The notes under the pieces were generated by a model that did no database searches, was not told the origin of the DNA, and saw only the letters and a program-made list of their open reading frames with translations. Shown one piece after another: positions 1,282 to 54,464 of a stretch of DNA of 60,487 nt. The position numbers were made by a program, and so were the translations under genes. Position 1 is the first letter of the stretch. Every line of letters starts with the position of its first letter. The DNA is from an uncultured bacterium. GTDB lineage: Bacteria > Fidelibacterota > Marinisomatia > Marinisomatales > UBA1611. The stretch covers positions 1-60,487 of the forward strand of contig CAZYDX010000002.1 of NCBI GenBank assembly GCA_964646455.1. The letters run 5' to 3'.

Positions 1282-3204
1282 ATGTTTGATGATTTAAAAT
1301 TAGGATTGAAGATACGGGCTGTTGAAGAGGCCTTCCTTGATATATTTTCAAAAGGCCTTTTGAGTGGAACTGTTCATACATGTGTAGGCCAGGAATTATC
1401 AGCAGTAGCAGTTTCGAAGTATCTGAAAAAAAACGATTATGTTTTTAGCAATCATCGTTGCCATGGTCATTATATTGCATTTACAAATACTTACGAAAAT
1501 CTTATTGATGAGTTACTGGGCAAAGAATCCGGGTTAAGTGGAGGAATCGGTGGTAGTCAACATATTGCGCATAACAATTTTTTCTCTAATGGTCCACAAG
1601 GTTCGCTTTCTCCTGTTGCTGTGGGCGTTGCTGAAGGTTTAAAACGTAAATCTAAAAAACATATTTCAGTTTGTTTTATTGGGGATGGTACATTAGGCGA
1701 AGGCATAATTTACGAGTCTTTAAATTTAGCAGCCTTGTATAATCTTCCGATTCTATTTGCATGCGAGAATAATAAATATGCACAATCAACAAAAACATCT
1801 GAGAATTTATCTGGATCAATTTTTGAAAGAGCAAAATCATTTGGCTTAAATGTTTTTGAGTCAGATACATGGAACTATGAAAAACTTCTCAGTGCTGCAA
1901 ATAAAGCAATTATTAAAACAAGGAATAATGAACCAAGTTTTCTAATTATTAATACTTACAGATTAAAAGCTCATTCAAAAGGAGATGATGACAGAGATCC
2001 TGAAGAAATAAAAAAGTATGAAAAGCTGGATCTTCTAAACAAAGAGTTAAAAAATAATGAATCGTTAAATGAATTTTATTTAAAAATAAAAGGTGAAATA
2101 AGTGATTATATAGATGTCGCACTAAATAAGGTTGAGATGCCTAGTAAGAATTATCTTGGAAAAAAAATATCTGTAAATAATTTAAAATTGCAACATCATA
2201 ATATAGATATAAAAATCAAACAGGTTTCTCAGATTAATAAATTCTTTGATTTGACAATAAAAAATAATGATAAAACCATATTGATCGGCGAAGATATTAA
2301 AGATCCATATGGTGGAGCATTTAAGGTTACAAAAGGTTTATCCAGCAAATACAAAAATAATGTCATATCAACTCCAATTTCAGAAGCTGCCATTGTCGGA
2401 ATGGGTATCGGACTTTGTTTGATGGGCTATAAGCCATTTGTTGAAATCATGTTTGGAGATTTCATTAGTTATTCTTTTGATCAAATATTATCGAATGCTT
2501 CAAAATTTTACCATATGTATAATAAACAAGTAGCAATTCCATTAGTAATTCGTACGCCAATGGGAGGTGGCCGAGGATATGGGCCAACTCACTCTCAAAG
2601 TATTGAAAAGTTTTTCAATGGTATAAATAATATACAAATAATTGCATTAAATACATTTATTGATGCAAATAGATTGTATCAATCCATTTTTAATTACAAA
2701 CACACAACTATAGTCATTGAAAATAAGCTAGACTATGGTAGATTAAAAAATACTGTTCCCCAATCCGTAAACTATATTTACTCAAAATCAGACGACTTAT
2801 ATCCTATAATATTTTGTGCTCCCGATAATATAAATTCAACTCTAAGTATCATCACCTATGGTGGTTCAATACATCATGTAATGGAATCAATTGATTCCAT
2901 TTTTTATGAATATGAAACAATACCAAACATTATAATTTTGACAAAAATTTACCCAATCAATTTTAATGATATATTTGAATTGACCAAAGATTCAGAATAT
3001 ATTGTTACAGTTGAAGAGAGTAATGTAGAGGGAGGCTTTGGTTCTGAAATCATTTCCAGTCTTATAGAATTTGACAATTTGAAGAATAAAAAATATTTAC
3101 GAATTGGCTCAGAAAATATACCGATACCCTCTACGAAATCTTTGGAAAGTCAAATGTTAGTGTCATCAAAAATGATTGTTGAAAAAATGAAAAAAATATT
3201 ATGA
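1282..3204 (+). CDS. Single-chain fused E1 alpha+beta component of a TPP-dependent 2-oxoacid (pyruvate/acetoin/branched-chain type) dehydrogenase
   Basis: 640 aa. The N-half carries the TPP motif GDG-X26-NN ('GDGTLGEGIIYESLNLAALYNLPILFACENN'). The C-half is E1-beta-like ('ISEAAIVGMGIGLCLMGYKPFVEIMFGDFISYSFDQI'). Its stop overlaps the start of the next gene (ATGA). Confidence 0.8.
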   Translation: MFDDLKLGLKIRAVEEAFLDIFSKGLLSGTVHTCVGQELSAVAVSKYLKKNDYVFSNHRCHGHYIAFTNTYENLIDELLGKESGLSGGIGGSQHIAHNNFFSNGPQGSLSPVAVGVAEGLKRKSKKHISVCFIGDGTLGEGIIYESLNLAALYNLPILFACENNKYAQSTKTSENLSGSIFERAKSFGLNVFESDTWNYEKLLSAANKAIIKTRNNEPSFLIINTYRLKAHSKGDDDRDPEEIKKYEKLDLLNKELKNNESLNEFYLKIKGEISDYIDVALNKVEMPSKNYLGKKISVNNLKLQHHNIDIKIKQVSQINKFFDLTIKNNDKTILIGEDIKDPYGGAFKVTKGLSSKYKNNVISTPISEAAIVGMGIGLCLMGYKPFVEIMFGDFISYSFDQILSNASKFYHMYNKQVAIPLVIRTPMGGGRGYGPTHSQSIEKFFNGINNIQIIALNTFIDANRLYQSIFNYKHTTIVIENKLDYGRLKNTVPQSVNYIYSKSDDLYPIIFCAPDNINSTLSIITYGGSIHHVMESIDSIFYEYETIPNIIILTKIYPINFNDIFELTKDSEYIVTVEESNVEGGFGSEIISSLIEFDNLKNKKYLRIGSENIPIPSTKSLESQMLVSSKMIVEKMKKIL

Positions 3205-4253
3205 TGCCTTCAGAAGAAATTAAGATTCCTCAAGATAATGTAAATGACGAAGAGGTAATAATAACAAATATATACGTTAATAATGATCAAGAAATTGATA
3301 AGGATACACATGTCGCTGATTACGAGACCTCCAAGGCAAACTTTGAACTATATTCCAAATCAAAAGGATATGTTTTTTTAAAGTGCTCAAAGGGGGATAG
3401 TGTAAAAGTTGGCTCTACAATTATAGATATATTTGAAAAACCATTTTCTCCATCAATTGAAGATGAAAAATCTAATTTAAATGATCTCAAACAAAATATT
3501 AGTAAAAAAGCATTAGAAAAGATAAAAAAACATAATTTAGACATAAGTTTATTTGATGGAGGAATATTAGTTACAGAAAAAGTTGTAGACGAATATATTA
3601 ATAAAACATTGAAGAATAATCATGTGGAAAGAATTATTAATTTTAGTCAAATCAAACAAACTGAAATAGAAAATCTATTTGATGGTGCTAGGCTTGGTCT
3701 AGTTTCATCTGTTTCGAAAAGTTTCAATGTTGATACTGAAAAAATAAATCATTATCACACATATAAAGAATTTAAAGATTCAGTCTCAACTTTACTTATC
3801 GATGTTGCTTCAAAAATATTGTTGCAGGATAAATACAAACATTTAAATAGTTTTGTCCGAGACAAAACTGTAAATATCTACAAATCAGTGCATTTTGGAT
3901 TAGCATTAAATCTAGGTAATGGATTAAAGATTGGTGTTATTAAAGATTCTCAAAGTATGGATATTAATCAAATAGAATCTAGAGTAATTGAGCTTATTGA
4001 TGCTTACATTGATAATAAAATGAGTCTTGATGATGTTGAGGGTGCAACTGTTGTTTTGACTGATTTGACAGAACAAAACATAGATATATTTTCTCCATTA
4101 ATTTTAAAAAATAATACAATAATGTTTGGATTATCTGGTTCAAAAGGAAAAATTCAGACAATTACAATTGCTTTTGACCATAGAGTAAGTGATGGTCTAG
4201 AAATAGCTAATTTACTCAATGATATCATTCTTAAGATAACAGTAGATTTATAA
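3201..4253 (+). CDS. E2-type dihydrolipoamide acyltransferase (lipoyl domain, PSBD-like segment, catalytic domain)
   Basis: 350 aa. Lipoyl-lysine context 'DYETSKANFEL' (compare ETDKA). Subunit-binding-like 'ISKKALEKIKKHNLDISLF'. Catalytic 'AFDHRVSDG' (the DHRxxDG motif of 2-oxoacid dehydrogenase acyltransferases). Confidence 0.75.
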   Translation: MMPSEEIKIPQDNVNDEEVIITNIYVNNDQEIDKDTHVADYETSKANFELYSKSKGYVFLKCSKGDSVKVGSTIIDIFEKPFSPSIEDEKSNLNDLKQNISKKALEKIKKHNLDISLFDGGILVTEKVVDEYINKTLKNNHVERIINFSQIKQTEIENLFDGARLGLVSSVSKSFNVDTEKINHYHTYKEFKDSVSTLLIDVASKILLQDKYKHLNSFVRDKTVNIYKSVHFGLALNLGNGLKIGVIKDSQSMDINQIESRVIELIDAYIDNKMSLDDVEGATVVLTDLTEQNIDIFSPLILKNNTIMFGLSGSKGKIQTITIAFDHRVSDGLEIANLLNDIILKITVDL

Positions 4254-4254
4254 A

Positions 4255-4497
4255 ATGGTTGCTATAAGTAACGATCTAAAAGAGATTATTTGTAAATTCA
4301 TAAAAATTGATAAAGAAAGCTTATCTGATGATACAATAATTGACTCTTCCGTCCTGAGTGGTAGCGTTTTGTTTCATAGAATGATATCTAGAATTAATGA
4401 TTTATATGATATAGAAATTATTAACTATACTTTAATCAAAACATTCGGGGATTTAAAGAACCAGATTCGAGAAATTAAATCTGAGGATTTAAGTTGA
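4255..4497 (+). CDS. Acyl/peptidyl carrier protein-like (dedicated ACP)
   Basis: 80 aa, acidic, with helix-2-like 'LSGSVLFHRMISRINDLYDIEI'; the candidate Ppant serine is in the GS motif. It sits directly between E2 and a PPTase. There is no canonical DSL motif, so the call rests on size, context and pattern. Confidence 0.55.
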   Translation: MVAISNDLKEIICKFIKIDKESLSDDTIIDSSVLSGSVLFHRMISRINDLYDIEIINYTLIKTFGDLKNQIREIKSEDLS

Positions 4498-4814
4498 ATA
4501 TTGGTATTGATCTAATTAATGTAAATGAACTTCCCATTTATGATTCATTTTCTGAACAAAGGTTCTACTTTGATAATTTTTCAAAAAATGAAATTGAATA
4601 TGCAATATCAAAAAATAATAAGGATTCTATTTTTGCTTATCTTTTTTCAATAAAAGAATCCATTGTTAAAAGTGAAAAAAATTTAATTTATACTCCTTTT
4701 AATAAAATAGAAATTTCCATTATAAAAAATAAATTTTTTTATAAAAATTTTTTAATTACATGTTCATCTCTTGGAAAAAATTGGATTCTTGTATCAGTCA
4801 TTAATAAATATTAA
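4494..4814 (+). CDS. AcpS-type 4'-phosphopantetheinyl transferase (holo-ACP synthase family)
   Basis: 106 aa with a TTG start that overlaps the ACP stop (TTGA). 'IGIDLINVNEL' resembles the AcpS GIDIVEI motif, and 'FSIKESIVKS' resembles FAAKEAxxKA. Confidence 0.6.
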   Translation: MNIGIDLINVNELPIYDSFSEQRFYFDNFSKNEIEYAISKNNKDSIFAYLFSIKESIVKSEKNLIYTPFNKIEISIIKNKFFYKNFLITCSSLGKNWILVSVINKY

Positions 4815-6271
4815 TGTTATTTAATTCCTTAGAATTTTTTTTATTTCTTCCAATAGTTTTTTTTCTTTATTGGTTTTTTTTTAATAGAAATATACAATTA
4901 CAAAATATCTTATTATTAGTATGTAGTTATATTTTTTATGGTTGGTGGGATTGGAGATTTTTGTCATTAATTGCTGGATCAACAATTGTTGATTACTTTA
5001 TTGGTTTAAAAATCAATGGCGTTGATAATATAAAATATAAAAAATTTTTACTTTGGATAAGCATATCATTTAACCTCAGTTTATTAGGGTTTTTTAAATA
5101 TTTTAACTTTTTTATTGATTCATTTATCTATTTGGTTTCAGGTATTGGATTTGATTTTACTAGCTACTGGACTCTAAACATAATATTGCCTGTTGGAATA
5201 TCGTTTTATACATTTCAGACAATGTCCTATTCACTGGATATTTATTATGGGAAATTAAAACCCACAAAGAACTTTATTTCGTTCGCTGCATTTGTTAGCT
5301 TTCTCCCCCAACTTGTAGCTGGTCCAATTGAAAGAGCCTCTAACTTACTACCTCAGATTCAAAAATTACGAAAATTTAATTATAAGCAAGGAGTTCAAGG
5401 TCTGAGGTTAATATTGTGGGGAATGTTTAAAAAAGTAGTAATTGCAGATTCTTTAGCAGCAAATGTTGATTATATTTTTTCTAATTACGTCTATTATTCT
5501 GGAGGCATCCTTTTTCTTGGACTCTTATATTTTTCATTTCAAATATATTGTGATTTTAGTGGATACTCAGATATAGCAATTGGAGTTTCTAAGCTATTTG
5601 GTATTGAAATAATGTCAAACTTTAAATTTCCATATTTTTCAAGAAATATTGAAGAATACTGGAATAGGTGGCATATATCATTATCTTCTTGGTTCAGGGA
5701 TTATATTTACATCCCTTTGTTTAATAAAATTGATGATGATGATATTATTGACCAAAATTTGAATTATAAAATTCAAGGCATCAAAATAACATTAGTAACT
5801 TTTTTAATAAGTGGTTTATGGCATGGCTCAAATTGGACCTTTGTAATATGGGGGTTAATTCATTCTTTATTGTATTTACCATTATTTATTTTTGGTAGCC
5901 GTAATTATAGTACAGACAAAGTGTGGGATGGAAAAAAAATACCTTCTCTGTCACAATTTATTAAAAATGTTGCAACCTTTTTTTGCGTAATGATATCTTG
6001 GGTCTTTTTTAGAAGCGATAGTGTCTCAAATGGTTTTGAATATTTAAATCTAATGTTTTCAAATTTTTCTCTACCAGCAAGCCAGAGGTCAGGTATAATT
6101 TTTATTTTTATTTTAATATTGTTAGAGTATTTATTTAAAGATGATGAAAGGAATCCAATCAATTTTAAAATGAGATTTTTTAGATATTCAACTTATATAA
6201 TATTAGCATATTTTATCTTTTCCCATTTTAAATTAATTAACCTTTCTCAATTTATTTATTTTCAATTTTAA
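4814..6271 (+). CDS. MBOAT family O-acyltransferase (AlgI/DltB/PatA-like), copy 1
   Basis: 485 aa, polytopic. 'ISFYTFQTMSYSLDIY', 'FLPQLVAGPIERA', 'RWHISLSSWFRDYIYIPL' (conserved His), 'GLWHG', and a C-terminal 'FIYFQF'. Confidence 0.85.
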   Translation: MLFNSLEFFLFLPIVFFLYWFFFNRNIQLQNILLLVCSYIFYGWWDWRFLSLIAGSTIVDYFIGLKINGVDNIKYKKFLLWISISFNLSLLGFFKYFNFFIDSFIYLVSGIGFDFTSYWTLNIILPVGISFYTFQTMSYSLDIYYGKLKPTKNFISFAAFVSFLPQLVAGPIERASNLLPQIQKLRKFNYKQGVQGLRLILWGMFKKVVIADSLAANVDYIFSNYVYYSGGILFLGLLYFSFQIYCDFSGYSDIAIGVSKLFGIEIMSNFKFPYFSRNIEEYWNRWHISLSSWFRDYIYIPLFNKIDDDDIIDQNLNYKIQGIKITLVTFLISGLWHGSNWTFVIWGLIHSLLYLPLFIFGSRNYSTDKVWDGKKIPSLSQFIKNVATFFCVMISWVFFRSDSVSNGFEYLNLMFSNFSLPASQRSGIIFIFILILLEYLFKDDERNPINFKMRFFRYSTYIILAYFIFSHFKLINLSQFIYFQF

Positions 6272-6274
6272 CAT

Positions 6275-7255
6275 ATGAAAAATTTTTTAAAGAATACTCT
6301 CTTTTTCATTACGACCTTTGTTATTCTAATAATTTCAATTTATTATGTAAAAAACAAATCTTTATACATTGATTATGAGCGTTTTGAACCAAAAATATTT
6401 AACAAAAAGCTCGAAGTATTTAATAATTTTATAATAAAAAATAATTCAATAAATCTTATCCTCGGAAGCTCTGTTGTGGAACATTCGATAATTCCTGACT
6501 CAATTGGGCCTAAATGGTTTGCATTTGCCCATGGAGGGCAAAACATATACGAATCTTATAAATTCATAAATTACTTTAAAGAATATACAAAATTTGACTC
6601 TATCATTATTGGAATACAGCCATTTGATTTTCCATTTTCTTACATAAAAAATAGAGTTAATCAGCATCCATATACGAATGGAAATTTTCATATATTTGGA
6701 GAGGATTCTATAACTACTATTGATATGGATAGAAAAATAAAAAATATCCAAATTATTAAAGAAGAGAATTTTTTTAATATAAGTAATATTTTAGGTCAAG
6801 AAAAAAGAACTTCATTTATTAAGAATCAAGATGTTTGGTCTAAGCAAGGATATTCTGGCCTCAAATTTGATGAGCCTGTTGATTTAAGAAAGTTTTTTTA
6901 TGAAAACCCTTCAAATCTTAATAATTATTTAGGCCAATTTGTAAATTTCAAAAAAAATCCTAACCTATATTATTTTGAATTATTTGAAACTTTAATGAAT
7001 AACCTAGATATACATGTAATTTACATAATTATTCCAACACCAATTTACCGAATAGATATGATGGCCAAATATGGCCATGATAAATCTTGGTCAAGAGTTA
7101 AGAACATCCTAAAAGCAAAAGATATAATTTTCTGGGATTTCGAAAATATAAATATTCCATTCCCCTTAGAATTCATTGATGAAAATCATATGTCTTTTAA
7201 TAGTGCAAAAGATTTTACTCTTTTTATTAATTCTAAGTTAAATGAAGGCTCATAA
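6275..7255 (+). CDS. Membrane-anchored putative acyl-transfer partner of the MBOAT (DltD/AlgJ/SGNH-like)
   Basis: 326 aa with an N-terminal TM helix. 'LILGSSVVEHS' (GSS, DltD-like nucleophile context) and a C-terminal 'FIDENHMS' (DxxH). It starts 4 nt after the MBOAT. Homology was inferred by eye only. Confidence 0.35.
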   Translation: MKNFLKNTLFFITTFVILIISIYYVKNKSLYIDYERFEPKIFNKKLEVFNNFIIKNNSINLILGSSVVEHSIIPDSIGPKWFAFAHGGQNIYESYKFINYFKEYTKFDSIIIGIQPFDFPFSYIKNRVNQHPYTNGNFHIFGEDSITTIDMDRKIKNIQIIKEENFFNISNILGQEKRTSFIKNQDVWSKQGYSGLKFDEPVDLRKFFYENPSNLNNYLGQFVNFKKNPNLYYFELFETLMNNLDIHVIYIIIPTPIYRIDMMAKYGHDKSWSRVKNILKAKDIIFWDFENINIPFPLEFIDENHMSFNSAKDFTLFINSKLNEGS

Positions 7256-7257
7256 CT

Positions 7258-8625
7258 ATGTTTAAAAAAATTGAAATATGGATTTTATATCTTACTTTGG
7301 TATTTGTTTTAATATCATATATTATTTTTGGTAGTTTAGTAAGAAGAGAAATTATAAAAGGTGAATATATACCTGTAATTAGTACCATTTCAAAAATTGC
7401 TCTTTTCGTTGCAGAAATTCCATTTAATTTAAAAATGATATTTGATAGAAAAGTAACATCCCCTCATCTAAACGGAATAAATAGATTTGGAAATTCTAAT
7501 GGTTTTTCAGGAACTAAAGAAGACAATGAAAAATATCTACTTCTCTCAAGGTTTGATGGTGATTTAAATGACGGTGTAGTTGAACTTGTTGATTTAAGAG
7601 ATTTTAATGTTTTATTTAAATGGAATCCTGATATTGATGAATTTTGGGAAAAAATAGAGGATAAAAACAGTGAAAAATGGAGATATCTTAAGAGAGATAG
7701 AAATGATAAGAGATTTATATTGATCCATCCGCTATTCACTGATAATGGTTCTTTGATATTTAAATTTGGCTCTCCTTTGGTAAAAATTGATTATAATTCA
7801 AAACTAGAATGGATTTTAGATGATCAAATTTATCATCACTCGATTGAGGAAGATTATGAAGGAAACTTATGGGTATGTGTAAGCTATCATCCATATAAAA
7901 TTAGTAAAAAATATGTTGGCATAAAATATGATAACTATATTGATGATGGTGTAAGAAAACTTTCGCCTAATGGTGAAATACTTTTTGACAAATCTATTTC
8001 AGAGTTATTCATTGAAAATAAGATGGAGGAATTATTATTCACCAACACTGATAAATTTAAAAGAGATCCAATTCATTTAAATGATATCCAGCCTGTTGAA
8101 TATGATTCAAAATTTTGGAAGAGAGGTGATATTTTCATTTCATTAAGAAATGTATCAATAATTTTGCTTTATAGACCTTCAAATAATAAAATCATATGGA
8201 AATTTAATGGCAAAACTTTTAATCAACACGATGTTGATATATTAAATAGTAATACAATTTCTATATTTGATAATAATATGAAAATGTTTTATAGTGGTGG
8301 AAATGTTGATGGTAATAATAGAGTGGGAGTCTATAACTTTTTAAAAGATGAATATTTATTTTATTTAAACAAATCATTAATAAAAGAAGATGTTAAAACA
8401 GCTACTGGAGGCAGGAGTCAAATATTACCTAATGGTGATTTACTTGTGGAGGAAACTAATTATGGAAGATTATTATATTTTAATAATGATGGTTCTTTAA
8501 AATGGACTTATGTTAATAGTTCAAAAACAAATAATACTTTTGATCTTGGATGGTCAAGGATTTTATATGAGAATGAAGATTTAAAGTTGATTGCAAAATT
8601 TTTACAAAAAAAGGAAGTTAAATGA
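7258..8625 (+). CDS. Arylsulfotransferase (ASST)-like beta-propeller protein, N-terminally membrane anchored
   Basis: 455 aa with an N-terminal TM helix. His-rich motifs 'IYHHSIEEDYEGNLWV', 'DPIHLNDIQ' and 'NQHDVDILNSNTISIFDNN' are reminiscent of the Arylsulfotran_2/ASST families. Needs an HMM check. Confidence 0.4.
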   Translation: MFKKIEIWILYLTLVFVLISYIIFGSLVRREIIKGEYIPVISTISKIALFVAEIPFNLKMIFDRKVTSPHLNGINRFGNSNGFSGTKEDNEKYLLLSRFDGDLNDGVVELVDLRDFNVLFKWNPDIDEFWEKIEDKNSEKWRYLKRDRNDKRFILIHPLFTDNGSLIFKFGSPLVKIDYNSKLEWILDDQIYHHSIEEDYEGNLWVCVSYHPYKISKKYVGIKYDNYIDDGVRKLSPNGEILFDKSISELFIENKMEELLFTNTDKFKRDPIHLNDIQPVEYDSKFWKRGDIFISLRNVSIILLYRPSNNKIIWKFNGKTFNQHDVDILNSNTISIFDNNMKMFYSGGNVDGNNRVGVYNFLKDEYLFYLNKSLIKEDVKTATGGRSQILPNGDLLVEETNYGRLLYFNNDGSLKWTYVNSSKTNNTFDLGWSRILYENEDLKLIAKFLQKKEVK

Positions 8626-8804
8626 AATATATACTCATTCTATTTATATTAATATCTGATTTAATATATGGCTATATAGGGCCTGGTATGAGCAGTGGCC
8701 TAATTGCAACAATTATTGGGATATTAGGTTCTCTTTTACTTGCTATATTTGGTATAGTTTACTATCCAATAAAAAGAATATTAAAAAAGCGACAAAAAAA
8801 ATAA
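8622..8804 (+). CDS. Small membrane protein (2 predicted TM helices), unknown function
   Basis: 60 aa. Its ATGA overlap with the upstream stop suggests translational coupling. It has a hydrophobic core and a basic C-tail 'KRILKKRQKK'. Confidence 0.4.
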   Translation: MKYILILFILISDLIYGYIGPGMSSGLIATIIGILGSLLLAIFGIVYYPIKRILKKRQKK

Positions 8805-8811
8805 TTATTTT

Positions 8812-9183
8812 TTGTATTATTTTCTTAGCCCGCATTTAATCTTATTGATATGTTGCGTTATATCAGTTGAAATTATTTTAAACTTTAATTTTTTATCTTA
8901 TTTATATTTTTTTTCTTCCCTATTAAATAAAGTATTAAGGTTATTTAAATCAAAAAATATTAGTGACCATTGGAAGGAAAAAGTTATACTAGCTTACTCA
9001 TTTTTAATATTTAAAAATTCATTCAAATCTTTTCTCATAATTATTTTGATTTTTGCAATATTTTTAATTCCTTCTTTAATTTTCAAGCAGTTTTTTACAT
9101 ATATCATATCTATTTATGGGTTAATTGAATCTATTTTTTTGTGTTTTATTTATATCAAAGTAAGGAAAATAATTTTTGCATAA
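8812..9183 (+). CDS. Small polytopic membrane protein, unknown function
   Basis: 123 aa with a TTG start and 3-4 hydrophobic segments. It overlaps the start of the next gene. No recognisable motif. Confidence 0.35.
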   Translation: MYYFLSPHLILLICCVISVEIILNFNFLSYLYFFSSLLNKVLRLFKSKNISDHWKEKVILAYSFLIFKNSFKSFLIIILIFAIFLIPSLIFKQFFTYIISIYGLIESIFLCFIYIKVRKIIFA

Positions 9184-10135
9184 TTATACAATTTCACAAC
9201 AACTACTACATAGAATCGGATTGTCTTCAAAATTTTTAAGAGAAATGTATTTTGATTTTGAAAAATCTTTTTTCTATAATGATAATTGCAACACTAAAGA
9301 TAATCATGTTTTTATTGTTGGTATGGCTCGTTCAGGAACCACAATTCTTCTTAATGCTATTTATAGATCAGGTATGTTTGCATCTTATACTTATCAAGAT
9401 ATGCCATTCGTTTTAGCTCCGAATCTATGGTCTAAAATTAATAAGAATAGACCATCAATAGATAAAATTGAAAGAGCGCATGGAGATGGCATTCGGATTG
9501 ATACAGATTCACCCGAAGCATTTGAAGAAGTTTTTTGGCTTACTTTCAAAGATAAACACGAATATTTATTTGATGAATTTGATAAGTTAATACAAATGTT
9601 GTGTCAAAAGTATGATAAAACTAGATATCTGAGTAAGAATAACCAAAATATTAGAAGATTAGGAGAAATTATTAAATATTTTCCGTCCTCTAAGGTGATA
9701 ATCCCATTTCGCGAACCATTACAGCATTCATATAGTTTATTCAATCAACATATTAAATTTAATAAAATTCAAAAGGATAATAGTTTTATTAAATCATATA
9801 TGTCCTGGATTGGGCATAGTGAGTTTGGTCTAGACTATAGCCCATTTGTTAATAAAAAAATACTTTATGAAGATCATAACGATATAAATCATTGGTTAGA
9901 ACAGTGGCTATTATCATATGAGTATTTAATGAAATATAAAAAGACTCCAAATGTATTTTTTAATTGTTATGAAACTTTATGTGGTGATGTTGCATTTTGG
10001 GAATCCTTATTGGATTTTATTGATATTGAAGGGTATGAATTTGAGTTTAAAGAGTCAAAAAAAGAAGTATCAGAAACATATAATGAAAATTTATATAAAA
10101 AATGTTTAGAGTTATATAGGTCTCTTTTAAAATGA
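9176..10135 (+). CDS. PAPS-dependent sulfotransferase family protein
   Basis: 5'-PSB loop 'VGMARSGTTILLN' and a 3'-PB-like 'IPFREPLQHSYS'. The ORF-track start is TTG at 9176; an alternative ATG is at 9245. Confidence 0.7.
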   Translation: MHNYTISQQLLHRIGLSSKFLREMYFDFEKSFFYNDNCNTKDNHVFIVGMARSGTTILLNAIYRSGMFASYTYQDMPFVLAPNLWSKINKNRPSIDKIERAHGDGIRIDTDSPEAFEEVFWLTFKDKHEYLFDEFDKLIQMLCQKYDKTRYLSKNNQNIRRLGEIIKYFPSSKVIIPFREPLQHSYSLFNQHIKFNKIQKDNSFIKSYMSWIGHSEFGLDYSPFVNKKILYEDHNDINHWLEQWLLSYEYLMKYKKTPNVFFNCYETLCGDVAFWESLLDFIDIEGYEFEFKESKKEVSETYNENLYKKCLELYRSLLK

Positions 10136-19150: not shown

Positions 19151-20995
19151 ATGTGTGGAGTAGTAGGTCAAGTAGCCTTTAAAAGTCAAATAGATGAAAA
19201 AACATTAATTGAACTTAGGGATATGATAAATCATAGAGGGCCAGATGATAAAGGCATATATAAATCTCGTGATAAAATATGTTTTCTAGGTCATAGAAGA
19301 TTATCAATTATTGATCTTTCAAAAAATGCCCAGCAACCTATGACTAGCAAAGATGGTCGATTTTCAATTATTTTTAATGGAGAGATTTATAATTATTTAG
19401 ATTTAAAAAATAAATTAACTAAATCTGGTGTAAAGTTTAAATCAAGTTCAGATACTGAAGTTTTATTAGAATTATATATGAAGTATGGAGTTAAATGTCT
19501 TGACCGATTAAGAGGAATGTTTGTTTTTGCTGTCTGGGATGAACTCAAACAAGAATTATTTTTAGCAAGAGACCCTCTAGGTATAAAGTCTGTTTTTTAT
19601 ATTAAAACAAAGGATGGTATAATTTTTTGCTCAGAACTTCGGCCACTAAGAAAATTGAACTTGTGTGGGAATTTAAATTTTAAAAATATCAATACTTTCT
19701 TAAAGAAGGGGTCAATACCATCCCCAGACACAATTTTTGAAGGTGTAAAATCATTAGAACCAGGTAATTTTTTAGTTGTATCCAAAAATCAAAAGATTGA
19801 AAAGTTAAATTATTGGGAATTAAGCTCGTTAGAGCTTGATGAATTACAAGCCAATAATAGAAATGAAATAGTAGCGTTTACAAAAGAGAGTTTGTTAGAA
19901 TCTATGAAATCACATTTAGTAAGTGATGTGCCAGTTGGAGCATTTTTATCTGGAGGCATAGACTCTTCTGCTATTGTTTCCTTAATGAGACAATCTGGAC
20001 AAAATAAAATAGGTACGTTTTCCCTAGCTTTTGAAAATCAATTATTAGATGAATCTTTATATTCTAAGCATGTATCCGAGTTATTTGATACTGACCATCA
20101 TGAATTAGTTGTTACTAATGATAAAATTTCTAATTATATCGATAACTTTATTAAATCAATGGATCAACCAACTATAGATGGTTTAAATACTTATATAGTA
20201 TCTAAATTGGCTAAAAATAATGGTTATAAAGTAGTTACATCAGGTATAGGTGGCGATGAGCTTTTTAGAGGATATAATCTGTTTAAAATTTTACCAAAAA
20301 TTGATTCAATATTTAAGTATAGTCCCTCCTCATTTAATAAAATTTTAAGTTATCTAATTCAAAGACTAATTTCACAAAATAGAATTAATTCGAAATGGGG
20401 AAGGTTTTGTTCTGCAATATCTCCAAATTATTCATTTGTTAAATTATACGAGCAAAGTCGAGCTTTATTCTCTAATCAAGAAATAAGAAATATATTGAAT
20501 TTAGATTGTGAGAATTTTGAACAGAATGATGATCAAAGATTAATTGAAATTTTTAATACCCAAAATAGTCTCGAGAGTAAAATATCAATGATGGAAACAT
20601 ACAGATATCTTGGCTCGCAACTCTTATATGACTCAGATATTTTTAGTATGGCGAATTCTATCGAATTAAGAACTCCATTTATTGACAAAACTCTTTACGA
20701 AAAAATTTACAGTATAAAAAATGATGTATGGTTTAATGATAAAAAGTATAATAAATCACTTTTAGTTGATGCCGTTGGTGATTTGCCTCATGAAATATAC
20801 AATAGGCCAAAAATGGGATTTGTATTACCAAAGAATTTATTTTTAAAAAAAGAGATTTATGAAATAAAAAGTGAGATTTTAAATAAAGATTATTATAATA
20901 GTCTTGAAAAAAATTTTGTAGATGGTAAAATACATTATTCAAAAATTTGGTCAATTAGAATTTTGGATGAATATATATCAAGTGTTCAAAATTAA
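19151..20995 (+). CDS. Asparagine synthase (glutamine-hydrolysing) family amidotransferase, copy 1
   Basis: The 'MCGVVG' N-terminal Cys nucleophile (Ntn GATase II) and the PP-loop 'FLSGGIDSS'. 614 aa. Confidence 0.85.
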   Translation: MCGVVGQVAFKSQIDEKTLIELRDMINHRGPDDKGIYKSRDKICFLGHRRLSIIDLSKNAQQPMTSKDGRFSIIFNGEIYNYLDLKNKLTKSGVKFKSSSDTEVLLELYMKYGVKCLDRLRGMFVFAVWDELKQELFLARDPLGIKSVFYIKTKDGIIFCSELRPLRKLNLCGNLNFKNINTFLKKGSIPSPDTIFEGVKSLEPGNFLVVSKNQKIEKLNYWELSSLELDELQANNRNEIVAFTKESLLESMKSHLVSDVPVGAFLSGGIDSSAIVSLMRQSGQNKIGTFSLAFENQLLDESLYSKHVSELFDTDHHELVVTNDKISNYIDNFIKSMDQPTIDGLNTYIVSKLAKNNGYKVVTSGIGGDELFRGYNLFKILPKIDSIFKYSPSSFNKILSYLIQRLISQNRINSKWGRFCSAISPNYSFVKLYEQSRALFSNQEIRNILNLDCENFEQNDDQRLIEIFNTQNSLESKISMMETYRYLGSQLLYDSDIFSMANSIELRTPFIDKTLYEKIYSIKNDVWFNDKKYNKSLLVDAVGDLPHEIYNRPKMGFVLPKNLFLKKEIYEIKSEILNKDYYNSLEKNFVDGKIHYSKIWSIRILDEYISSVQN

Positions 20996-22244: not shown

Positions 22245-23972
22245 ATGAGTGTAATTTTAGGCATTAACACTTTTCATGCTGGCTCTTCAGCAAGTATTGT
22301 TGTAGATGGTAAACCAATTTTTGCTGTTGCTGAAGAGCGATTAAATAGAAAAAAATATTATGCTGGATTTCCCGTTCTTTCTATCCAAGCATGTTTGGAT
22401 TATACTGGAATTAAAATTGGAGATATTGATTATGTAACTGTTGGAAGAGATTCAAATGCTAACCTTCAAGAAAAGGTTAAGTATACTATAAAAAACCCTT
22501 CAAGGTTATTAAATCTTTCAAAAATTAAAAGTGCTAGAAGTTCTTTGAATGACATTAAGAGTTTGATGTCATCAAAAATGGAGATTCCTATCGAAAAACT
22601 TAAATTTCAACAAATAAATGTAGAGCACCACTTAGCTCATATATCCAGTGCTTTTTTTATCTCTAAATGGGATCGTTCAGCAGGTTTATCCTGTGATGGA
22701 TCTGGGGATTTTGTTACTAGCATGATGGCGGATTGTTTTGATGATAAAATTGAAATTAAGAATAGGATTTATGTACCTCATAGTCTGGGTTCTTTCTATA
22801 CAATGATATCTGAATTTATAGGCTACAAAAAATATGGTGATGAAGGTAAAGTAATGGGCTTATCTGCATTAGGTGAAGGAGAATACATCGATGATCTTAG
22901 TGATATGGTTTTATTGAATGATGATGAGATGAAATTAAATCCAAAGTATTTTCTTCCATTTGGTTCAAATCAAGGTGTTCGTATAACAGATGAAGGTTCT
23001 ATGGCTATGACCAGACATTTTTCGGATGAAATGATAAAAGTTTTTGGAGAACCAAGAAATCCAGGAGATGAAATAACCAAAAGAGATAAAGATTTAGCTT
23101 TTTCAGTACAACATGTTTTCGAGAATGCATATTTGCATTTACTTAATCTGCTACATAAAAAAGTACCAAATGATAAAATAGCTATGGCAGGGGGGTGTGT
23201 ATTAAACAGTGTTGCTAATGGGTTGATTTTTGATAGGACACCATTTAGAGATACATGTATTCAGCCAGCAGCAGGAGATGATGGGCTATCTATTGGTTCA
23301 GCGCTCTATGCTAGTAATGTTATATTGAAAGAGGGTAAAAGGTTCGAGATGGTTGACTCTTACCTTGGACCGGAATATTCTGATAGTGTAATTAAATCAG
23401 AACTTGATAAAAGAGGCATAAAATATCAAAAATTGAATAAAAAAGACCTTATTGAAAAAACCTCAGAGGAAATTGCTAAGGGCAACGTTGTTGGATGGTT
23501 TCAAGGTAGAATGGAATGGGGTCCAAGAGCGCTAGGAAATAGGTCAATTTTATGTCACCCGGGTAAAAGCGATATGAAAGATATATTAAACTCAAGAATC
23601 AAACATAGAGAGTCTTTTAGACCATTTGCTCCTGCCATTTTGAAAGAACACCAAGATGAGGTCTTTGAAAAGAGTTATCCTTCACCCTTTATGCTGCACG
23701 TATACAAAATTAAAAAAGCATGGCAAGAAAGATTACCAGCGGTAAATCACCTTGATAATACTGGCAGACTGCAATCCGTAAGCAAACATGAGAATGCTTT
23801 ATATTATGAACTCATCAATTCATTTTATAAAAGAACAGGTATCCCAATTTTGTTAAATACAAGTTTTAATGAGAATGAACCCATTGTTTGTGAACCAAGT
23901 CAAGCTATTGACTGCTATAAAAGAACAAAAATGGATGTGCTTTCAATTGGCTCATATTTTTGTGTTAAATAA
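22245..23972 (+). CDS. NodU/CmcH family carbamoyltransferase
   Basis: 575 aa. N-terminus 'ILGINTFHAGSSASIVVDGKPIFAVAEERLNRKKY' and C-terminal 'LNTSFNENEPIVC', both typical of the carbamoyltransferase N/C domains. An SD-like 'AAGGA' lies upstream. Confidence 0.85.
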   Translation: MSVILGINTFHAGSSASIVVDGKPIFAVAEERLNRKKYYAGFPVLSIQACLDYTGIKIGDIDYVTVGRDSNANLQEKVKYTIKNPSRLLNLSKIKSARSSLNDIKSLMSSKMEIPIEKLKFQQINVEHHLAHISSAFFISKWDRSAGLSCDGSGDFVTSMMADCFDDKIEIKNRIYVPHSLGSFYTMISEFIGYKKYGDEGKVMGLSALGEGEYIDDLSDMVLLNDDEMKLNPKYFLPFGSNQGVRITDEGSMAMTRHFSDEMIKVFGEPRNPGDEITKRDKDLAFSVQHVFENAYLHLLNLLHKKVPNDKIAMAGGCVLNSVANGLIFDRTPFRDTCIQPAAGDDGLSIGSALYASNVILKEGKRFEMVDSYLGPEYSDSVIKSELDKRGIKYQKLNKKDLIEKTSEEIAKGNVVGWFQGRMEWGPRALGNRSILCHPGKSDMKDILNSRIKHRESFRPFAPAILKEHQDEVFEKSYPSPFMLHVYKIKKAWQERLPAVNHLDNTGRLQSVSKHENALYYELINSFYKRTGIPILLNTSFNENEPIVCEPSQAIDCYKRTKMDVLSIGSYFCVK

Positions 23973-26445: not shown

Positions 26446-27410
26446 TGATGGATAAAAAATATTTTTTAATATTCATTTTAAGTTTTTGTGTTGTAAATAT
26501 TGCAGTTTCTCTTCTGCCAAACGGTCCTTATATGTCGATGTTTAAAAACTCAATTAAATTATCTAAAAAATTTAGACAAGAATATGAAGTAATTCTATAT
26601 GGAGATTCAAAAGGGACTATGTTTAATAAAGATTACTTTGATAGGAAGATACTTTCTTTAGCTTGTGAAAATAATAGTATTCTTTTTTCAAAGTTTTTGC
26701 ATGATGGGATAATAAATAGCCAAAAAAAATCATTAAAAGTTGTAATTATATTTTTAGGACCAAATAACTATAATAAAAATGGCATTTTTGTTACCAGAGA
26801 TTTTGGGCTTAGACGATTGGCAAAATTAAGTGATATTCCTGCTATTATTGGATATGATAATGGATTTGATAATGCCTTAGAAATAATATCTAGTAAATTA
26901 ATTCCAATTTATGCTAGAAGGATGGAAATTCGTGATTTTGACATTGTTAAGAATATGGTATCATTAAAATATGAAAATTTGTTAACACAAGGAATGAGAC
27001 ATAATACAAAACAGGTTGATTTATTAAAAATTTCGGCAATAGATAAAAGTGCTGATCGTAATTATTTACTTACATATAAGAGGTCAGTATATAACAATTT
27101 TGAGTTGTCTCATTTACATACTCAGTTTTTATTGGAAATTATAAATGTTAACAGCGCTTTGGGTATAAGTACAGTCTTAATACAACTACCAATTAAAAAT
27201 GAAATGTTAGAATTGCAAAAAAGTTTAGTCAAACAAGGATTTGATGAGTTAATTGATAAAATTATAGAAAGTAATGATATTTTATATTTTGATCTAAGAA
27301 ATCAAAACTATGATTTTTCTGATATTAATCATTTAAGTAGTAAAGGAGCTTATGACCTAACTAAAAATTTTATTAATCCATTAATTGAAAAACTCATTCT
27401 ATCTAGGTAA
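26445..27410 (+). CDS. Membrane-anchored SGNH/AlgJ/PatB-like putative acyltransferase partner of MBOAT-2
   Basis: 321 aa with an N-terminal TM helix, 'ILYGDSKG' (GDS block I) and a C-terminal 'DFSDINHLS' (DxxH). Its start overlaps or abuts the MBOAT stop (GTG 26445 or ATG 26448). Confidence 0.4.
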   Translation: MMDKKYFLIFILSFCVVNIAVSLLPNGPYMSMFKNSIKLSKKFRQEYEVILYGDSKGTMFNKDYFDRKILSLACENNSILFSKFLHDGIINSQKKSLKVVIIFLGPNNYNKNGIFVTRDFGLRRLAKLSDIPAIIGYDNGFDNALEIISSKLIPIYARRMEIRDFDIVKNMVSLKYENLLTQGMRHNTKQVDLLKISAIDKSADRNYLLTYKRSVYNNFELSHLHTQFLLEIINVNSALGISTVLIQLPIKNEMLELQKSLVKQGFDELIDKIIESNDILYFDLRNQNYDFSDINHLSSKGAYDLTKNFINPLIEKLILSR

Positions 27411-54461: not shown

Positions 54462-54464
54462 GCT

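What the first reader, a model, noticed from the sequence alone, without database searches (positions are those of the whole stretch)
1282..7255. Candidate new system: carrier-protein-dependent polysaccharide acylation fed by a 2-oxoacid dehydrogenase (E1alpha/beta - E2 - ACP - PPTase - MBOAT - DltD/SGNH-like)
Six co-directional genes are packed with 0-4 nt gaps or overlapping stop/start codons: 3201/3204 ATGA, 4253/4255, 4494/4497 TTGA, 4814 shared base, 6271/6275 and 7255/7258. They encode: (i) a single-chain E1 alpha+beta TPP enzyme with the GDG-X26-NN motif; (ii) a complete E2 with the lipoyl-Lys context 'ETSKA', a PSBD-like segment and catalytic 'DHRVSDG'; (iii) an 80-aa carrier protein; (iv) a 106-aa AcpS-type PPTase; (v) an AlgI/DltB-type MBOAT; (vi) a membrane-anchored protein with GSS...DxxH. 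Genes iii, v and vi follow the logic of the Dlt D-alanylation pathway (DltC carrier, DltB MBOAT, DltD), but no adenylating ligase (DltA) is present and an E1/E2 pair takes its place. My inference is that E2 passes the acyl group from its lipoyl arm to the phosphopantetheine thiol of the dedicated ACP, which is chemically equivalent to CoA-SH. The acyl-ACP would then donate to MBOAT-mediated trans-membrane O-acylation of the polysaccharide. The acyl group is unknown; it could be acetyl, propionyl or a branched short chain, depending on the 2-oxoacid. No E3 (dihydrolipoyl dehydrogenase) or lipoate ligase lies in the window, so housekeeping copies would have to be used. I know of no characterised pathway with this architecture, but I cannot query databases here.
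Basis: partly seen in the sequence, partly recalled or inferred. Interest (0 to 1): 0.85.

Follow-up and report, generated by a model that had tools for sequence, protein, structure and literature searches.

The report
Lipoyl-enzyme-fed carrier protein for glycan acylation
A marine Bacteroidota sugar-polymer locus holds a pyruvate-dehydrogenase-like enzyme pair that most likely loads a small acyl group onto its own carrier protein, which then probably feeds a membrane acyltransferase that decorates the polysaccharide; each part has a known precedent, but I found no report of them combined.

Summary
All six genes lie at the stated coordinates with the stated junctions. Profile, structure and motif tests confirm a fused E1alpha/beta, a lipoyl E2, an ACP (weak on its own, solid as a family), an AcpS-type PPTase, an MBOAT and an SGNH/DltD-like partner.

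The conserved core is E1-E2-ACP-PPTase:
- 72 distinct related loci were found, and 62 have a carrier protein and/or PPTase directly after E2.
- Every context examined is a glycan locus, apart from one PKS/NRPS cluster found through a fusion protein.
- Fusions occur: ACP-PPTase, E2-ACP-PPTase and E2-KS-DH-KR-ACP3.

This strongly supports transfer from E2 to the ACP. That step has a characterised precedent, the QncN/L/M glycolyl-ACP system.

The acyltransferase beside the module is either a WcaF-type hexapeptide transferase (most loci) or an MBOAT plus SGNH pair, as in the window and four other loci. The MBOAT ends in FIYFQF, the fused acyl-shuttle motif of PatA/AlgI-type enzymes, so it is not DltB-type.

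Close MBOAT-SGNH pairs also occur without any ACP, so the ACP-to-MBOAT step remains inferred. The acyl group is unknown; acetyl, glycolyl and others are possible.

Verdict: a real new variant built from known modules. Interest 0.66.

The parts
1282..3204 (+). Single-chain E1 (alpha+beta) thiamine-diphosphate enzyme, 640 aa. It belongs to a clade distinct from housekeeping E1.
   Evidence: Pfam E1_dh 1e-43, Transket_pyr and Transketolase_C. GDG-X26-NN at residue 134. It scores below every NCBIfam PDH cut-off (188 vs 394 bits). Identity is 62% to L003, 47% to Ferruginibacter L019 and 43% to the PKS-linked L115 E1, but only 28% to a housekeeping fused E1.
3201..4253 (+). E2 acyltransferase, 350 aa: lipoyl domain (Lys45 in DYETSKA), a degenerate PSBD-like linker, and a catalytic domain with DHRVSDG.
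   Evidence: Pfam 2-oxoacid_dh 3e-20 and Biotin_lipoyl 2e-6. PDB alignments to E2p and E2b. Family alignment A2 has invariant Y41, E42, T43, K45, A46 and F325, D326, R328, and H327 in at least 90% of sequences. 625 representative clusters score E<=1e-30 against the family profile.
4255..4497 (+). Dedicated acyl carrier protein, 80 aa, with the predicted phosphopantetheine site at Ser37 (LSGSVLFHRM).
   Evidence: Weak alone (Pfam E 0.059; NCBIfam E 0.0011). A family profile hits only ACPs in the PDB, with Ser37 aligned on the attachment serine. Homologues follow E2 in dozens of loci and are fused to the PPTase in Chitinophagaceae and in P0174.
4494..4814 (+). AcpS-type 4'-phosphopantetheinyl transferase, 106 aa, TTG start.
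   Evidence: Pfam ACPS 2e-8, above threshold. NCBIfam TIGR00556 8.7e-10, just below its cut-off. The start is supported by homologues that begin MNIGIDI at the same position. The IGID and FSIKES motifs are visible in the sequence.
4814..6271 (+). MBOAT, 485 aa, with the C-terminal acyl-shuttle hexapeptide FIYFQF (Tyr482).
   Evidence: Pfam MBOAT 4e-18. DltB is the nearest solved structure, E 4e-28, with WNRWH and WHG histidines aligned. The FIYFQF terminus is shared by all related MBOATs and fits the FXYXXF motif of PMC12148441. ACP-linked MBOATs form a clade with 172 of 200 bootstraps.
6275..7255 (+). Membrane-anchored SGNH/DltD-like acyltransferase partner, 326 aa: one N-terminal helix, GSS at 64-66, DENH at 302-305.
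   Evidence: No Pfam or NCBIfam hit. 51-sequence alignment A1 has invariant G64, S65, D108 and H305. AlphaFold pLDDT 90. Foldseek PDB matches: CgnD, DltD (6pfx, E 1.7e-4), PatB and GDSL esterases. One homologue hits Pfam DltD.
7258..8625 (+). ASST-type arylsulfotransferase-like protein. It is packed directly behind the cassette but absent from related cassettes, so it is probably a separate tailoring step of the same locus.
   Evidence: Pfam Arylsulfotran_2 4e-45. No homologue lies next to the cassette in the related loci scanned up to (L001-L114).

Best explanation
This is a dedicated acyl-ACP generator coupled to an MBOAT-SGNH glycan O-acyltransferase.

Proposed steps:
1. The fused E1 uses thiamine diphosphate to take a short acyl-equivalent from a 2-oxoacid or a ketose phosphate and reductively acylates the lipoyl-Lys45 arm of E2.
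2. The E2 catalytic domain passes the acyl group to the phosphopantetheine thiol of the adjacent 80-aa ACP instead of to CoA. The co-encoded AcpS-type PPTase has converted that ACP to its holo form.
3. A housekeeping E3 and the cell's own lipoylation enzymes, encoded elsewhere, re-oxidise and install the lipoyl group.
4. Acyl-ACP is the cytoplasmic donor for the MBOAT.
5. The MBOAT moves the acyl group to Tyr482 of its own C-terminal FIYFQF shuttle motif on the outer face of the membrane.
6. The membrane-anchored SGNH/DltD-like protein takes the acyl group on Ser65 and places it on a hydroxyl of the polysaccharide built by the surrounding locus.

Status of the evidence: domain identities, gene order and its conservation, and the fusions are shown here. 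Every transfer step is inferred. The acyl group is unknown. Because a cell would hardly build this machine to make an acetyl donor it already has as acetyl-CoA, a non-acetyl group such as glycolyl (as in the Qnc system) is a serious candidate.

E2 to ACP:
- 72 distinct loci carry this E2 family, and 62 have an ACP and/or PPTase directly after E2.
- Three further loci have a different ~80-aa ACP in that position.
- No locus shows an adenylating enzyme or acyl-CoA:ACP transacylase that could load the ACP. The exception is L115, which has AMP-binding and AT genes as expected for a PKS/NRPS line.
- Fusions: ACP-PPTase in about 40 loci, lipoyl-E2-ACP-PPTase in P0174, lipoyl-E2-KS-DH-KR-ACP3 in P0230, and lipoyl-E2-KR-ACP in P0225.
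- The E1 next to P0230 is 43% identical to the window's E1, against 28% for a housekeeping E1. That cluster also encodes LplA, LipA and an E3, which fits a working lipoyl redox cycle.
- Published precedent: QncN/L/M and SclQ1-4 plus SclP form glycolyl-ACP (PMC6335953; PMC13249901).

ACP to acyltransferase:
- An acyltransferase gene lies beside the module. In the MBOAT loci and in L116 it directly follows the PPTase.
- MBOAT follows with overlapping or abutting codons in five distinct loci: the window, L050, L057/L117, L002-4 and L066.
- A hexapeptide transferase follows the PPTase in L116.
- In Chitinophagaceae a WcaF-type transferase lies up to about 3 kb upstream of E1. It accounts for 19 of the 24 loci with long flanks. 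None of those 24 has both an MBOAT and a hexapeptide transferase.
- ACP-linked MBOATs form their own clade, with 172 of 200 bootstraps.
- The window has a second MBOAT-SGNH pair with no ACP. This fits two different donors.
- No other candidate acyl-ACP user was found in the window.

Shuttle mechanism:
- The FIYFQF terminus fits the FXYXXF acyl-shuttle motif shown for PatA (PMC12148441).
Against: - The sister clade of MBOAT-SGNH pairs, 58-66% identical, stands alone with no E1, E2 or ACP within 7-9 kb. A carrier protein is therefore not a general requirement of this MBOAT lineage.
- PMC12148441 reports that fused-shuttle MBOATs use acyl-CoA and lack carrier proteins.
- No E3, lipoate ligase or lipoyl synthase is in the window.
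- The ACP assignment is weak at the single-sequence level.
- Nothing here identifies the substrate of E1 or the acyl group.
- I could not model the E2:ACP or ACP:MBOAT complexes, and I could not obtain QncN/L/M sequences for a direct homology test.
- All evidence comes from genomic context and homology.
Confidence: 0.55

Rival explanations
1. Two independent modules sit side by side. E1-E2-ACP-PPTase makes an acyl-ACP for some other, unrecognised acceptor enzyme in the locus. The MBOAT-SGNH pair is an ordinary acetyl-CoA-dependent O-acetyltransferase of the PatA/PatB or AlgI/AlgJ kind.
For: Close MBOAT-SGNH pairs occur without any ACP module. The MBOAT has the fused shuttle motif typical of acyl-CoA users (PMC12148441). 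The E1-E2-ACP-PPTase core occurs without an MBOAT in most loci.
Against: MBOAT follows the PPTase with overlapping or abutting codons in five distinct loci whose flanks differ. Those loci lack the hexapeptide transferase that accompanies the module elsewhere. ACP-linked MBOATs form a separate clade. The window already has a second, ACP-less MBOAT-SGNH pair that could handle acetylation. No alternative acyl-ACP user was found in the window.
Confidence: 0.25
2. E2 behaves conventionally and makes an acyl-CoA. The dedicated PPTase then transfers the whole acyl-phosphopantetheine from acyl-CoA onto apo-ACP. The ACP is thus loaded by the PPTase and not by E2.
For: The PPTase is always adjacent to the ACP and is physically fused to it in about 40 loci. 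That is unusual for an enzyme needed only once per carrier molecule. From general knowledge, PPTases can accept acyl-CoAs in vitro.
Against: After one transfer the ACP would remain as holo-ACP with no way to reload, and no ACP phosphodiesterase is present. Fusions of E2 directly to KS and ACP domains (P0230, P0225) and the Qnc precedent point to direct E2-to-carrier transfer. Integrated PPTase domains are known in other synthases.
Confidence: 0.07
3. This is an ordinary catabolic pyruvate, acetoin or branched-chain 2-oxoacid dehydrogenase operon that happens to lie in a polysaccharide locus.
For: E1 and E2 have generic similarity to PDH and BCKDH components.
Against: No E3 is present. All scores are far below the NCBIfam equivalog cut-offs. 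E1 is only 28% identical to a housekeeping E1 from a related genome. An ACP and a PPTase are invariably attached. All 72 related loci that were characterised are glycan or PKS contexts.
Confidence: 0.02

Closest known systems
QncN/QncL/QncM, NapB/NapD and SclQ1-4 plus SclP: the glycolyl-ACP ('hydroxyethyl hijacking') system of Streptomyces tetrahydroisoquinoline and scleric acid pathways
   Same: The parts list matches: a ThDP E1 (alpha and beta parts), an E2 with lipoyl and acyltransferase domains, a small dedicated ACP and, in scl, a PPTase. The acyl group goes from the lipoyl arm to an ACP and not to CoA (PMC6335953; PMC13249901, citing Peng et al. PNAS 2012). A relative of the window's E1/E2 is fused to or adjacent to a PKS/NRPS line.
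   Different: Here the module sits in glycan loci of Bacteroidota and feeds, by inference, an MBOAT-SGNH pair or a hexapeptide transferase rather than an NRPS condensation domain. E1 is a single chain and E2 is separate, whereas QncL fuses E1beta to E2. The substrate and acyl group are unknown. Sequence-level homology to Qnc proteins could not be tested because no sequences were available.
Dlt D-alanylation pathway (DltA, DltC, DltB, DltX, DltD)
   Same: A carrier protein with a thioester is presented to an MBOAT. An SGNH-fold DltD-type protein finishes the transfer outside the membrane. DltB is the nearest solved structure to the MBOAT and DltD is among the best fold matches to the sixth protein.
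   Different: There is no DltA adenylating ligase. Loading is by E1/E2, so the group is an acyl rather than an aminoacyl. There is no DltX microprotein, because the FXYXXF shuttle is fused to the MBOAT C-terminus on extra helices. The MBOAT scores far below the NCBIfam DltB cut-off (156 vs 375 bits). The host is Gram-negative and the target is a polysaccharide, not teichoic acid.
MBOAT-SGNH O-acetyltransferase pairs (PatA/PatB, AlgI/AlgJ/AlgX, WssH/WssI)
   Same: The MBOAT has conserved histidines and a C-terminal FXYXXF tyrosine shuttle. A separate extracytoplasmic SGNH partner has Ser and His catalytic residues. PatB is among the fold matches (PMC12148441).
   Different: Those systems use acetyl-CoA and are stated to lack a carrier protein. 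Here a dedicated ACP, its PPTase and an E1/E2 loader are translationally packed in front of the MBOAT.
Canonical 2-oxoacid dehydrogenase complexes (PDH, BCKDH, acetoin dehydrogenase AcoABC)
   Same: Same E1 (alpha2beta2-type) and E2 folds, the ThDP motif, the lipoyl-lysine motif and the catalytic DHRxxDG.
   Different: No E3 in the locus. The PSBD is degenerate. Scores are below all equivalog cut-offs. The context is biosynthetic and the inferred acceptor is an ACP instead of CoA.

Membership tests
2-oxoacid dehydrogenase E1 (heterotetramer type, here fused) | ThDP-binding fold with the GDG-X(25-30)-NN motif, plus the pyrimidine-binding and C-terminal transketolase-like domains | tested here: met
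   Pfam E1_dh, Transket_pyr and Transketolase_C. GDG-X26-NN at residue 134.
2-oxoacid dehydrogenase E1 (heterotetramer type, here fused) | Equivalog-level match to a pyruvate, branched-chain or acetoin E1, which would indicate substrate assignment | tested here: not met
   The best NCBIfam matches are TIGR03182 at 188 bits against a cut-off of 394, and PRK09212 at 151 against 321.
2-oxoacid dehydrogenase E2 | Lipoyl domain with the conserved lysine, and a catalytic domain with DHRxxDG | tested here: met
   Biotin_lipoyl and 2-oxoacid_dh. ETSKA aligned on EGDKA and DHRV aligned in PDB hits. These residues are invariant or nearly invariant in the family.
2-oxoacid dehydrogenase E2 | A recognisable E3/E1-binding (PSBD) domain and a cognate E3 gene | tested here: not met
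   No Pfam E3_binding hit, only a conserved SKKA...F...VTE segment. No Pyr_redox gene among the window ORFs scanned.
2-oxoacid dehydrogenase E2 | CoA as the acyl acceptor | not testable with these tools
   This needs biochemistry. Context and fusions argue for a carrier-protein acceptor.
Qnc/Nap/Scl glycolyl-ACP system | Co-encoded ThDP E1, lipoyl E2 and a dedicated small ACP (plus a PPTase in scl) | tested here: met
   Gene order in the window and in 62 of 72 related loci. The parts list is compared with Table 1 of PMC6335953.
Qnc/Nap/Scl glycolyl-ACP system | Sequence homology to QncN/QncL/QncM closer than to primary-metabolism E1/E2 | not testable with these tools
   No Qnc or Scl sequences could be retrieved. 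As an indirect point, a PKS-fused relative (P0230/L115) groups with the window's E1 (43% vs 28% identity).
Qnc/Nap/Scl glycolyl-ACP system | Ketose phosphate donor and a glycolyl product delivered to an NRPS | not testable with these tools
   The substrate is unknown. The downstream enzymes here are glycan acyltransferases, not an NRPS.
Acyl carrier protein (PP-binding) | Four-helix carrier fold with a conserved serine at the start of helix II | tested here: met
   The single sequence is below Pfam's threshold (14.1 vs 20.8 bits). Family profile A3 has its five best PDB matches all to ACPs (best E 4e-4) with invariant Ser37 on the attachment serine. The ACP is fused to a PPTase in many loci.
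AcpS-type PPTase | ACPS domain of about 110-125 aa with the metal-binding Asp and Glu motifs | tested here: met
   Pfam ACPS 34.6 bits against a cut-off of 25. NCBIfam TIGR00556 38.8 against 45.35, just below. IGID and FSIKES are visible in the sequence.
Dlt pathway | DltA D-alanine-carrier protein ligase | tested here: not met
   No AMP-binding protein in the cassette or among the window ORFs scanned.
Dlt pathway | DltB equivalog lacking the shuttle motif, with a separate DltX microprotein carrying FXYXXF | tested here: not met
   TIGR04091 scores 156 bits against a cut-off of 375. The MBOAT extends about 85 aa beyond the DltB alignment and itself ends in FIYFQF.
Dlt pathway | DltD family membership of the SGNH partner | tested here: inconclusive
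   The window's protein has no Pfam DltD hit, and 1 of 51 homologues hits at 3e-7. DltD structures are among the top fold matches but with TM-scores of 0.34-0.44.
Bacterial MBOAT-SGNH acyltransferase pairs | MBOAT with conserved catalytic His and a C-terminal FXYXXF acyl-shuttle motif | tested here: met
   WNRWH and WHG are aligned to DltB. The FIYFQF terminus is conserved in all 10 related MBOATs examined. The motif is as defined in PMC12148441.
Bacterial MBOAT-SGNH acyltransferase pairs | Adjacent extracytoplasmic SGNH-fold partner with a catalytic Ser and His | tested here: met
   Invariant S65 and H305, D302 in 45 of 51, an N-terminal helix and an SGNH-like fold.
Bacterial MBOAT-SGNH acyltransferase pairs | Acyl-CoA donor with no carrier protein, as stated for the non-Dlt members | tested here: inconclusive
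   A dedicated ACP and PPTase directly precede the MBOAT, but the donor itself cannot be determined computationally. Sister-clade pairs lack an ACP.

The most novel reading that the evidence does not exclude
The window belongs to a widespread, undescribed clade of ThDP/lipoyl E1-E2 enzymes whose natural acceptor is a carrier protein rather than CoA. The family profile finds 625 representative clusters at E<=1e-30. In Bacteroidota this clade would serve glycan tailoring by delivering a non-acetyl C2-C5 acyl group, for example glycolyl taken from a ketose phosphate or hydroxypyruvate. Delivery would go either through WcaF-type hexapeptide transferases or, as here, through the first carrier-protein-dependent MBOAT-SGNH system outside the Dlt pathway. 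In that system a fused-shuttle MBOAT accepts acyl-ACP.
Probability: 0.35. Interest if true: 0.8.

Novelty: new variant of a known kind. Interest (0 to 1): 0.66.

Why it matters
- **MBOAT-SGNH donors.** Fused-shuttle MBOAT-SGNH systems are currently described as acyl-CoA users without carrier proteins, with Dlt as the only carrier-dependent case (PMC12148441). A fused-shuttle MBOAT fed by a dedicated ACP would break that split. It would also give a tractable system for asking how MBOATs recognise their cytoplasmic donor.
- **Reach of the Qnc-type route.** The lipoyl-to-ACP route would extend from a few actinomycete alkaloid pathways to surface-glycan decoration in Bacteroidota from marine, soil and freshwater samples.
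- **An unknown decoration.** The module predicts an acyl substituent on these polysaccharides that has not been identified. That bears on marine polysaccharide degradation, phage and grazer recognition, and glycan chemistry.
- **Experimental access.** Cultured carriers of the core module exist (Ferruginibacter sp. SUN002 and Segetibacter sp. 3557_3), so the prediction can be tested directly.

Tried and rejected
- Single-sequence AlphaFold of the sixth protein gave pLDDT 36 and was unusable. Repeating it with a 51-sequence alignment solved this.
- Pfam and NCBIfam on the sixth protein, and its family profile against PDB sequences, gave nothing. Only fold comparison worked.
- The primary Qnc paper (PMC3365175) is not held, so the precedent is cited through PMC6335953, PMC9268379 and PMC13249901. 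Qnc, Nap and Scl sequences could not be obtained, so direct homology and phylogeny with them were not tested.
- Four literature searches for an E1/E2/ACP module in polysaccharide, O-antigen or capsule loci, or for carrier-dependent MBOATs other than Dlt, found nothing relevant. One further search failed on term length.
- tRNA and Rfam scans of the window were empty.
- I considered whether the ASST-like gene at 7258 belongs to the cassette and rejected it, because no related cassette has it.
- I considered an acetoin or PDH catabolic operon and rejected it on context and score grounds.
- I considered predicting E1 substrate from active-site residues and dropped it, because I know of no reliable sequence rule for this.

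Full report
**1. The observation**

The junctions are as described: ATGA overlap at 3201-3204, a 1-nt gap before 4255, TTGA overlap at 4494-4497, a shared base at 4814, and gaps of 3 nt and 2 nt. The sequence shows GDG-X26-NN in E1, DYETSKA in E2 and DHRVSDG in E2.

Profile searches confirm most assignments.
- E1: E1_dh, Transket_pyr and Transketolase_C.
- E2: Biotin_lipoyl and 2-oxoacid_dh. PDB alignments put Lys45 on the lipoyl lysine and DHRV on the catalytic motif.
- PPTase: ACPS, above Pfam's threshold.
- MBOAT: Pfam MBOAT. Its nearest solved structure is DltB, E 4e-28, with both conserved histidine motifs aligned.

Two assignments needed more work.
- The 80-aa protein is sub-threshold alone. 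A 24-member family profile has its five best PDB matches all to acyl carrier proteins, and its invariant Ser37 falls on the attachment serine.
- The sixth protein has no family hit. Across 51 homologues G64, S65, D108 and H305 are invariant and D302 is present in 45. An alignment-based AlphaFold model (pLDDT 90) matches DltD, PatB, CgnD and GDSL esterases.

The packed gene string continues beyond 7255 into an ASST-like sulfotransferase and further ORFs.

**2. The setting**

The window from 44 to about 41.6 kb is one large surface-polysaccharide locus. It encodes the following:
- glycosyltransferases of families GT1, GT2 and GT4
- an initiating sugar transferase
- Wzi and a CapD/PglF-like protein
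- UDP-glucose dehydrogenase
- UDP-GlcNAc 2-epimerase
- a D-glucuronyl C5-epimerase
- two AsnB-like amidotransferases
- a carbamoyltransferase
- methyltransferases and two kinds of sulfotransferase

A PorZ-like gene and the related loci point to Bacteroidota. No E3, lipoate ligase or lipoyl synthase is in the window; the 48-58 kb part holds ilv, gap and pyk genes. The same contig recurs in several marine metagenomes.

**3. What is conserved**

An E2 family alignment was used to scan species-representative genomes and metagenomes. All six cassette proteins were then searched against every locus.
- 72 distinct loci carry this E2 family.
- 62 of them have an ACP and/or PPTase directly after E2. 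Most of the rest are truncated.
- Three have a different ~80-aa ACP in that position.

In the marine relatives the ACP and PPTase are separate genes, as in the window. In about 40 loci, mostly Chitinophagaceae (Ferruginibacter, Segetibacter, Flavitalea), they are fused into one ~250-aa protein. The conserved unit is therefore E1-E2-ACP-PPTase.

Every context I characterised is a glycan locus. The one exception is the PKS/NRPS cluster L115, found through the fusion protein P0230 (section 4). The family is not small: a full HMMER pass over 1.84 billion representatives finds 625 clusters at E<=1e-30.

**4. Evidence that E2 hands the acyl group to the carrier protein**

- The glycan loci contain nothing else that could load the ACP.
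- Fusion proteins in the same E2 family include lipoyl-E2-ACP-PPTase (P0174), lipoyl-E2-KS-DH-KR-ACP3 (P0230) and lipoyl-E2-KR-ACP (P0225).
- P0230 sits directly after a fused E1 that is 43% identical to the window's E1. A housekeeping fused E1 from a related genome is only 28% identical.
- The P0230 cluster also encodes an NRPS module, LplA, LipA and an E3.
- The chemistry has a characterised precedent. QncN/QncL/QncM, and their homologues SclQ1-4 with the PPTase SclP, convert a ketose phosphate into a glycolyl unit carried on an ACP (PMC6335953; PMC9268379; PMC13249901; all citing Peng et al., PNAS 2012).

The donor need not be a 2-oxoacid.

**5. Evidence on the step from ACP to MBOAT**

For the coupling:
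- In five distinct loci (the window, L050, L057/L117, L002-4/L062 and L066) the MBOAT gene follows the PPTase with overlapping or abutting codons. An SGNH-like gene with GSS...DxxH follows it, although the flanking genes differ.
- In the other loci the neighbouring acyltransferase is a hexapeptide-repeat enzyme. It lies directly after the PPTase in L116 and within about 3 kb upstream of E1 in Chitinophagaceae. There it is a WcaF-family EPS acetyltransferase scoring above the NCBIfam cut-off.
- Among 24 loci with long flanks, 19 have only the hexapeptide enzyme, 2 have only the MBOAT, none has both and 3 have neither. Interchangeable acyltransferases beside one conserved generator are what a shared acyl-ACP donor would predict.
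- ACP-linked MBOATs form a clade with 172 of 200 bootstraps.
- The window also has a second MBOAT-SGNH pair without an ACP (25042-27410). This fits two donors for two decorations.

Against the coupling:
- The sister clade of MBOAT-SGNH pairs, 58-66% identical, stands alone in Marinimicrobia and other marine contigs.
- All these MBOATs, including the window's, end in FIYFQF. This is the FXYXXF tyrosine shuttle shown for PatA and described as typical of acyl-CoA-using MBOATs that lack carrier proteins (PMC12148441).

The MBOAT is thus mechanistically of the PatA/AlgI kind, not the DltB-plus-DltX kind. Its use of acyl-ACP remains an inference, which I rate at roughly 0.6.

**6. The acyl group**

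E1 is somewhat closer to pyruvate-type than to branched-chain E1s in the PDB but lies far below every equivalog cut-off. Acetyl is the default reading. However, a dedicated generator for something already available as acetyl-CoA makes little sense, and the only characterised relatives by architecture make glycolyl. I leave the question open between acetyl, glycolyl, propionyl and branched short chains.

**7. Comparison and novelty**

The system combines two known mechanisms: the Qnc-type route from ThDP through lipoyl to ACP, and the MBOAT-SGNH tyrosine-shuttle relay. I found neither a curated NCBIfam model nor a paper that describes their combination, or this E1-E2-ACP-PPTase module in glycan loci. 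It is not a Dlt system, because DltA and DltX are absent and the DltB equivalog score is not met. It is not a canonical dehydrogenase complex either. I rate it a new variant of a known kind, with overall confidence of 0.55 in the full mechanism and interest of 0.66.

Noticed in passing
window 25042-27410: There is a second MBOAT (467 aa, 43% identical to the first, also ending FIYFQF). A 321-aa SGNH-like protein (GDS...DINH) directly follows it, with no carrier protein nearby. The locus therefore has two MBOAT-SGNH systems, which probably add different acyl groups.
   Followed up: partly
window 7258-10135, 31488-32468, 40298-41626: The locus holds an ASST-type arylsulfotransferase with an N-terminal membrane helix, a cytoplasmic-type sulfotransferase, a D-glucuronyl C5-epimerase and a UDP-glucose dehydrogenase. 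Together these suggest a sulfated, uronic-acid-containing, glycosaminoglycan-like polysaccharide in a marine Bacteroidota.
   Followed up: no
L001, L013, L055-L061, L116 and many hits: E2 relatives of about 399-440 aa carry a C-terminal tail of roughly 45 residues with CxxC...CxxC (zinc-ribbon-like). The window's 350-aa E2 lacks it. Its role is unknown; docking or a redox function are possible.
   Followed up: no
L115 (P0230), P0225, P0174, P0168: Fusion proteins occur in the same E2 family. P0230 is lipoyl-E2-KS-DH-KR-ACP3, in a PKS/NRPS cluster that also encodes a fused E1, LplA, LipA and an E3. P0225 is lipoyl-E2-KR-ACP. P0174 is lipoyl-E2-ACP-PPTase. P0168 is lipoyl-E2 fused to a CMD/AhpD-like domain, which might re-oxidise the lipoyl arm.
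   Followed up: partly
P0043 (contig in JGI 3300072015); L091 3-699: In P0043 a lipoyl domain 43% identical to the window's is fused to a NeuD/PglB/VioB hexapeptide sugar acyltransferase. It sits beside NeuC- and NeuB-like genes and downstream of a truncated large ORF. In L091 a lipoyl-only ORF is followed by a GNAT. These suggest variants in which the lipoyl arm feeds a sugar N-acyltransferase directly, with no ACP.
   Followed up: partly
L019, L023 and about 40 other loci (Chitinophagaceae): The ACP and the AcpS-type PPTase are fused into one ~250-aa protein. The module lies next to a WcaF-family acetyltransferase in EPS loci. L019 also has an exosortase-like gene and CpsB.
   Followed up: partly
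L001 70-11749: In a 583-kb Bacteroidota MAG contig the split-E1 version of the module (E1alpha, E1beta, E2, ACP, PPTase; no MBOAT) lies about 3 kb downstream of an LplA, fused E1, E2 (with PSBD) and LipA cluster that looks housekeeping.
   Followed up: no
L056 4380-7217: Directly after the PPTase come a polysaccharide deacetylase, a methyltransferase and a FemAB/PEP-CTERM-associated acyltransferase-like protein. This suggests a third type of downstream user, or a deacetylate-then-reacylate route.
   Followed up: no
window 19151-20995, 27416-29173, 22245-23972: Two AsnB-like glutamine amidotransferases and a carbamoyltransferase lie in the same locus. They indicate amidated and carbamoylated sugars in addition to acylation and sulfation.
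   Followed up: no
window 53439-55472: Two glyceraldehyde-3-phosphate dehydrogenase genes sit in tandem, next to pyruvate kinase and an ilvD-ilvB-ilvN-ilvC block.
   Followed up: no
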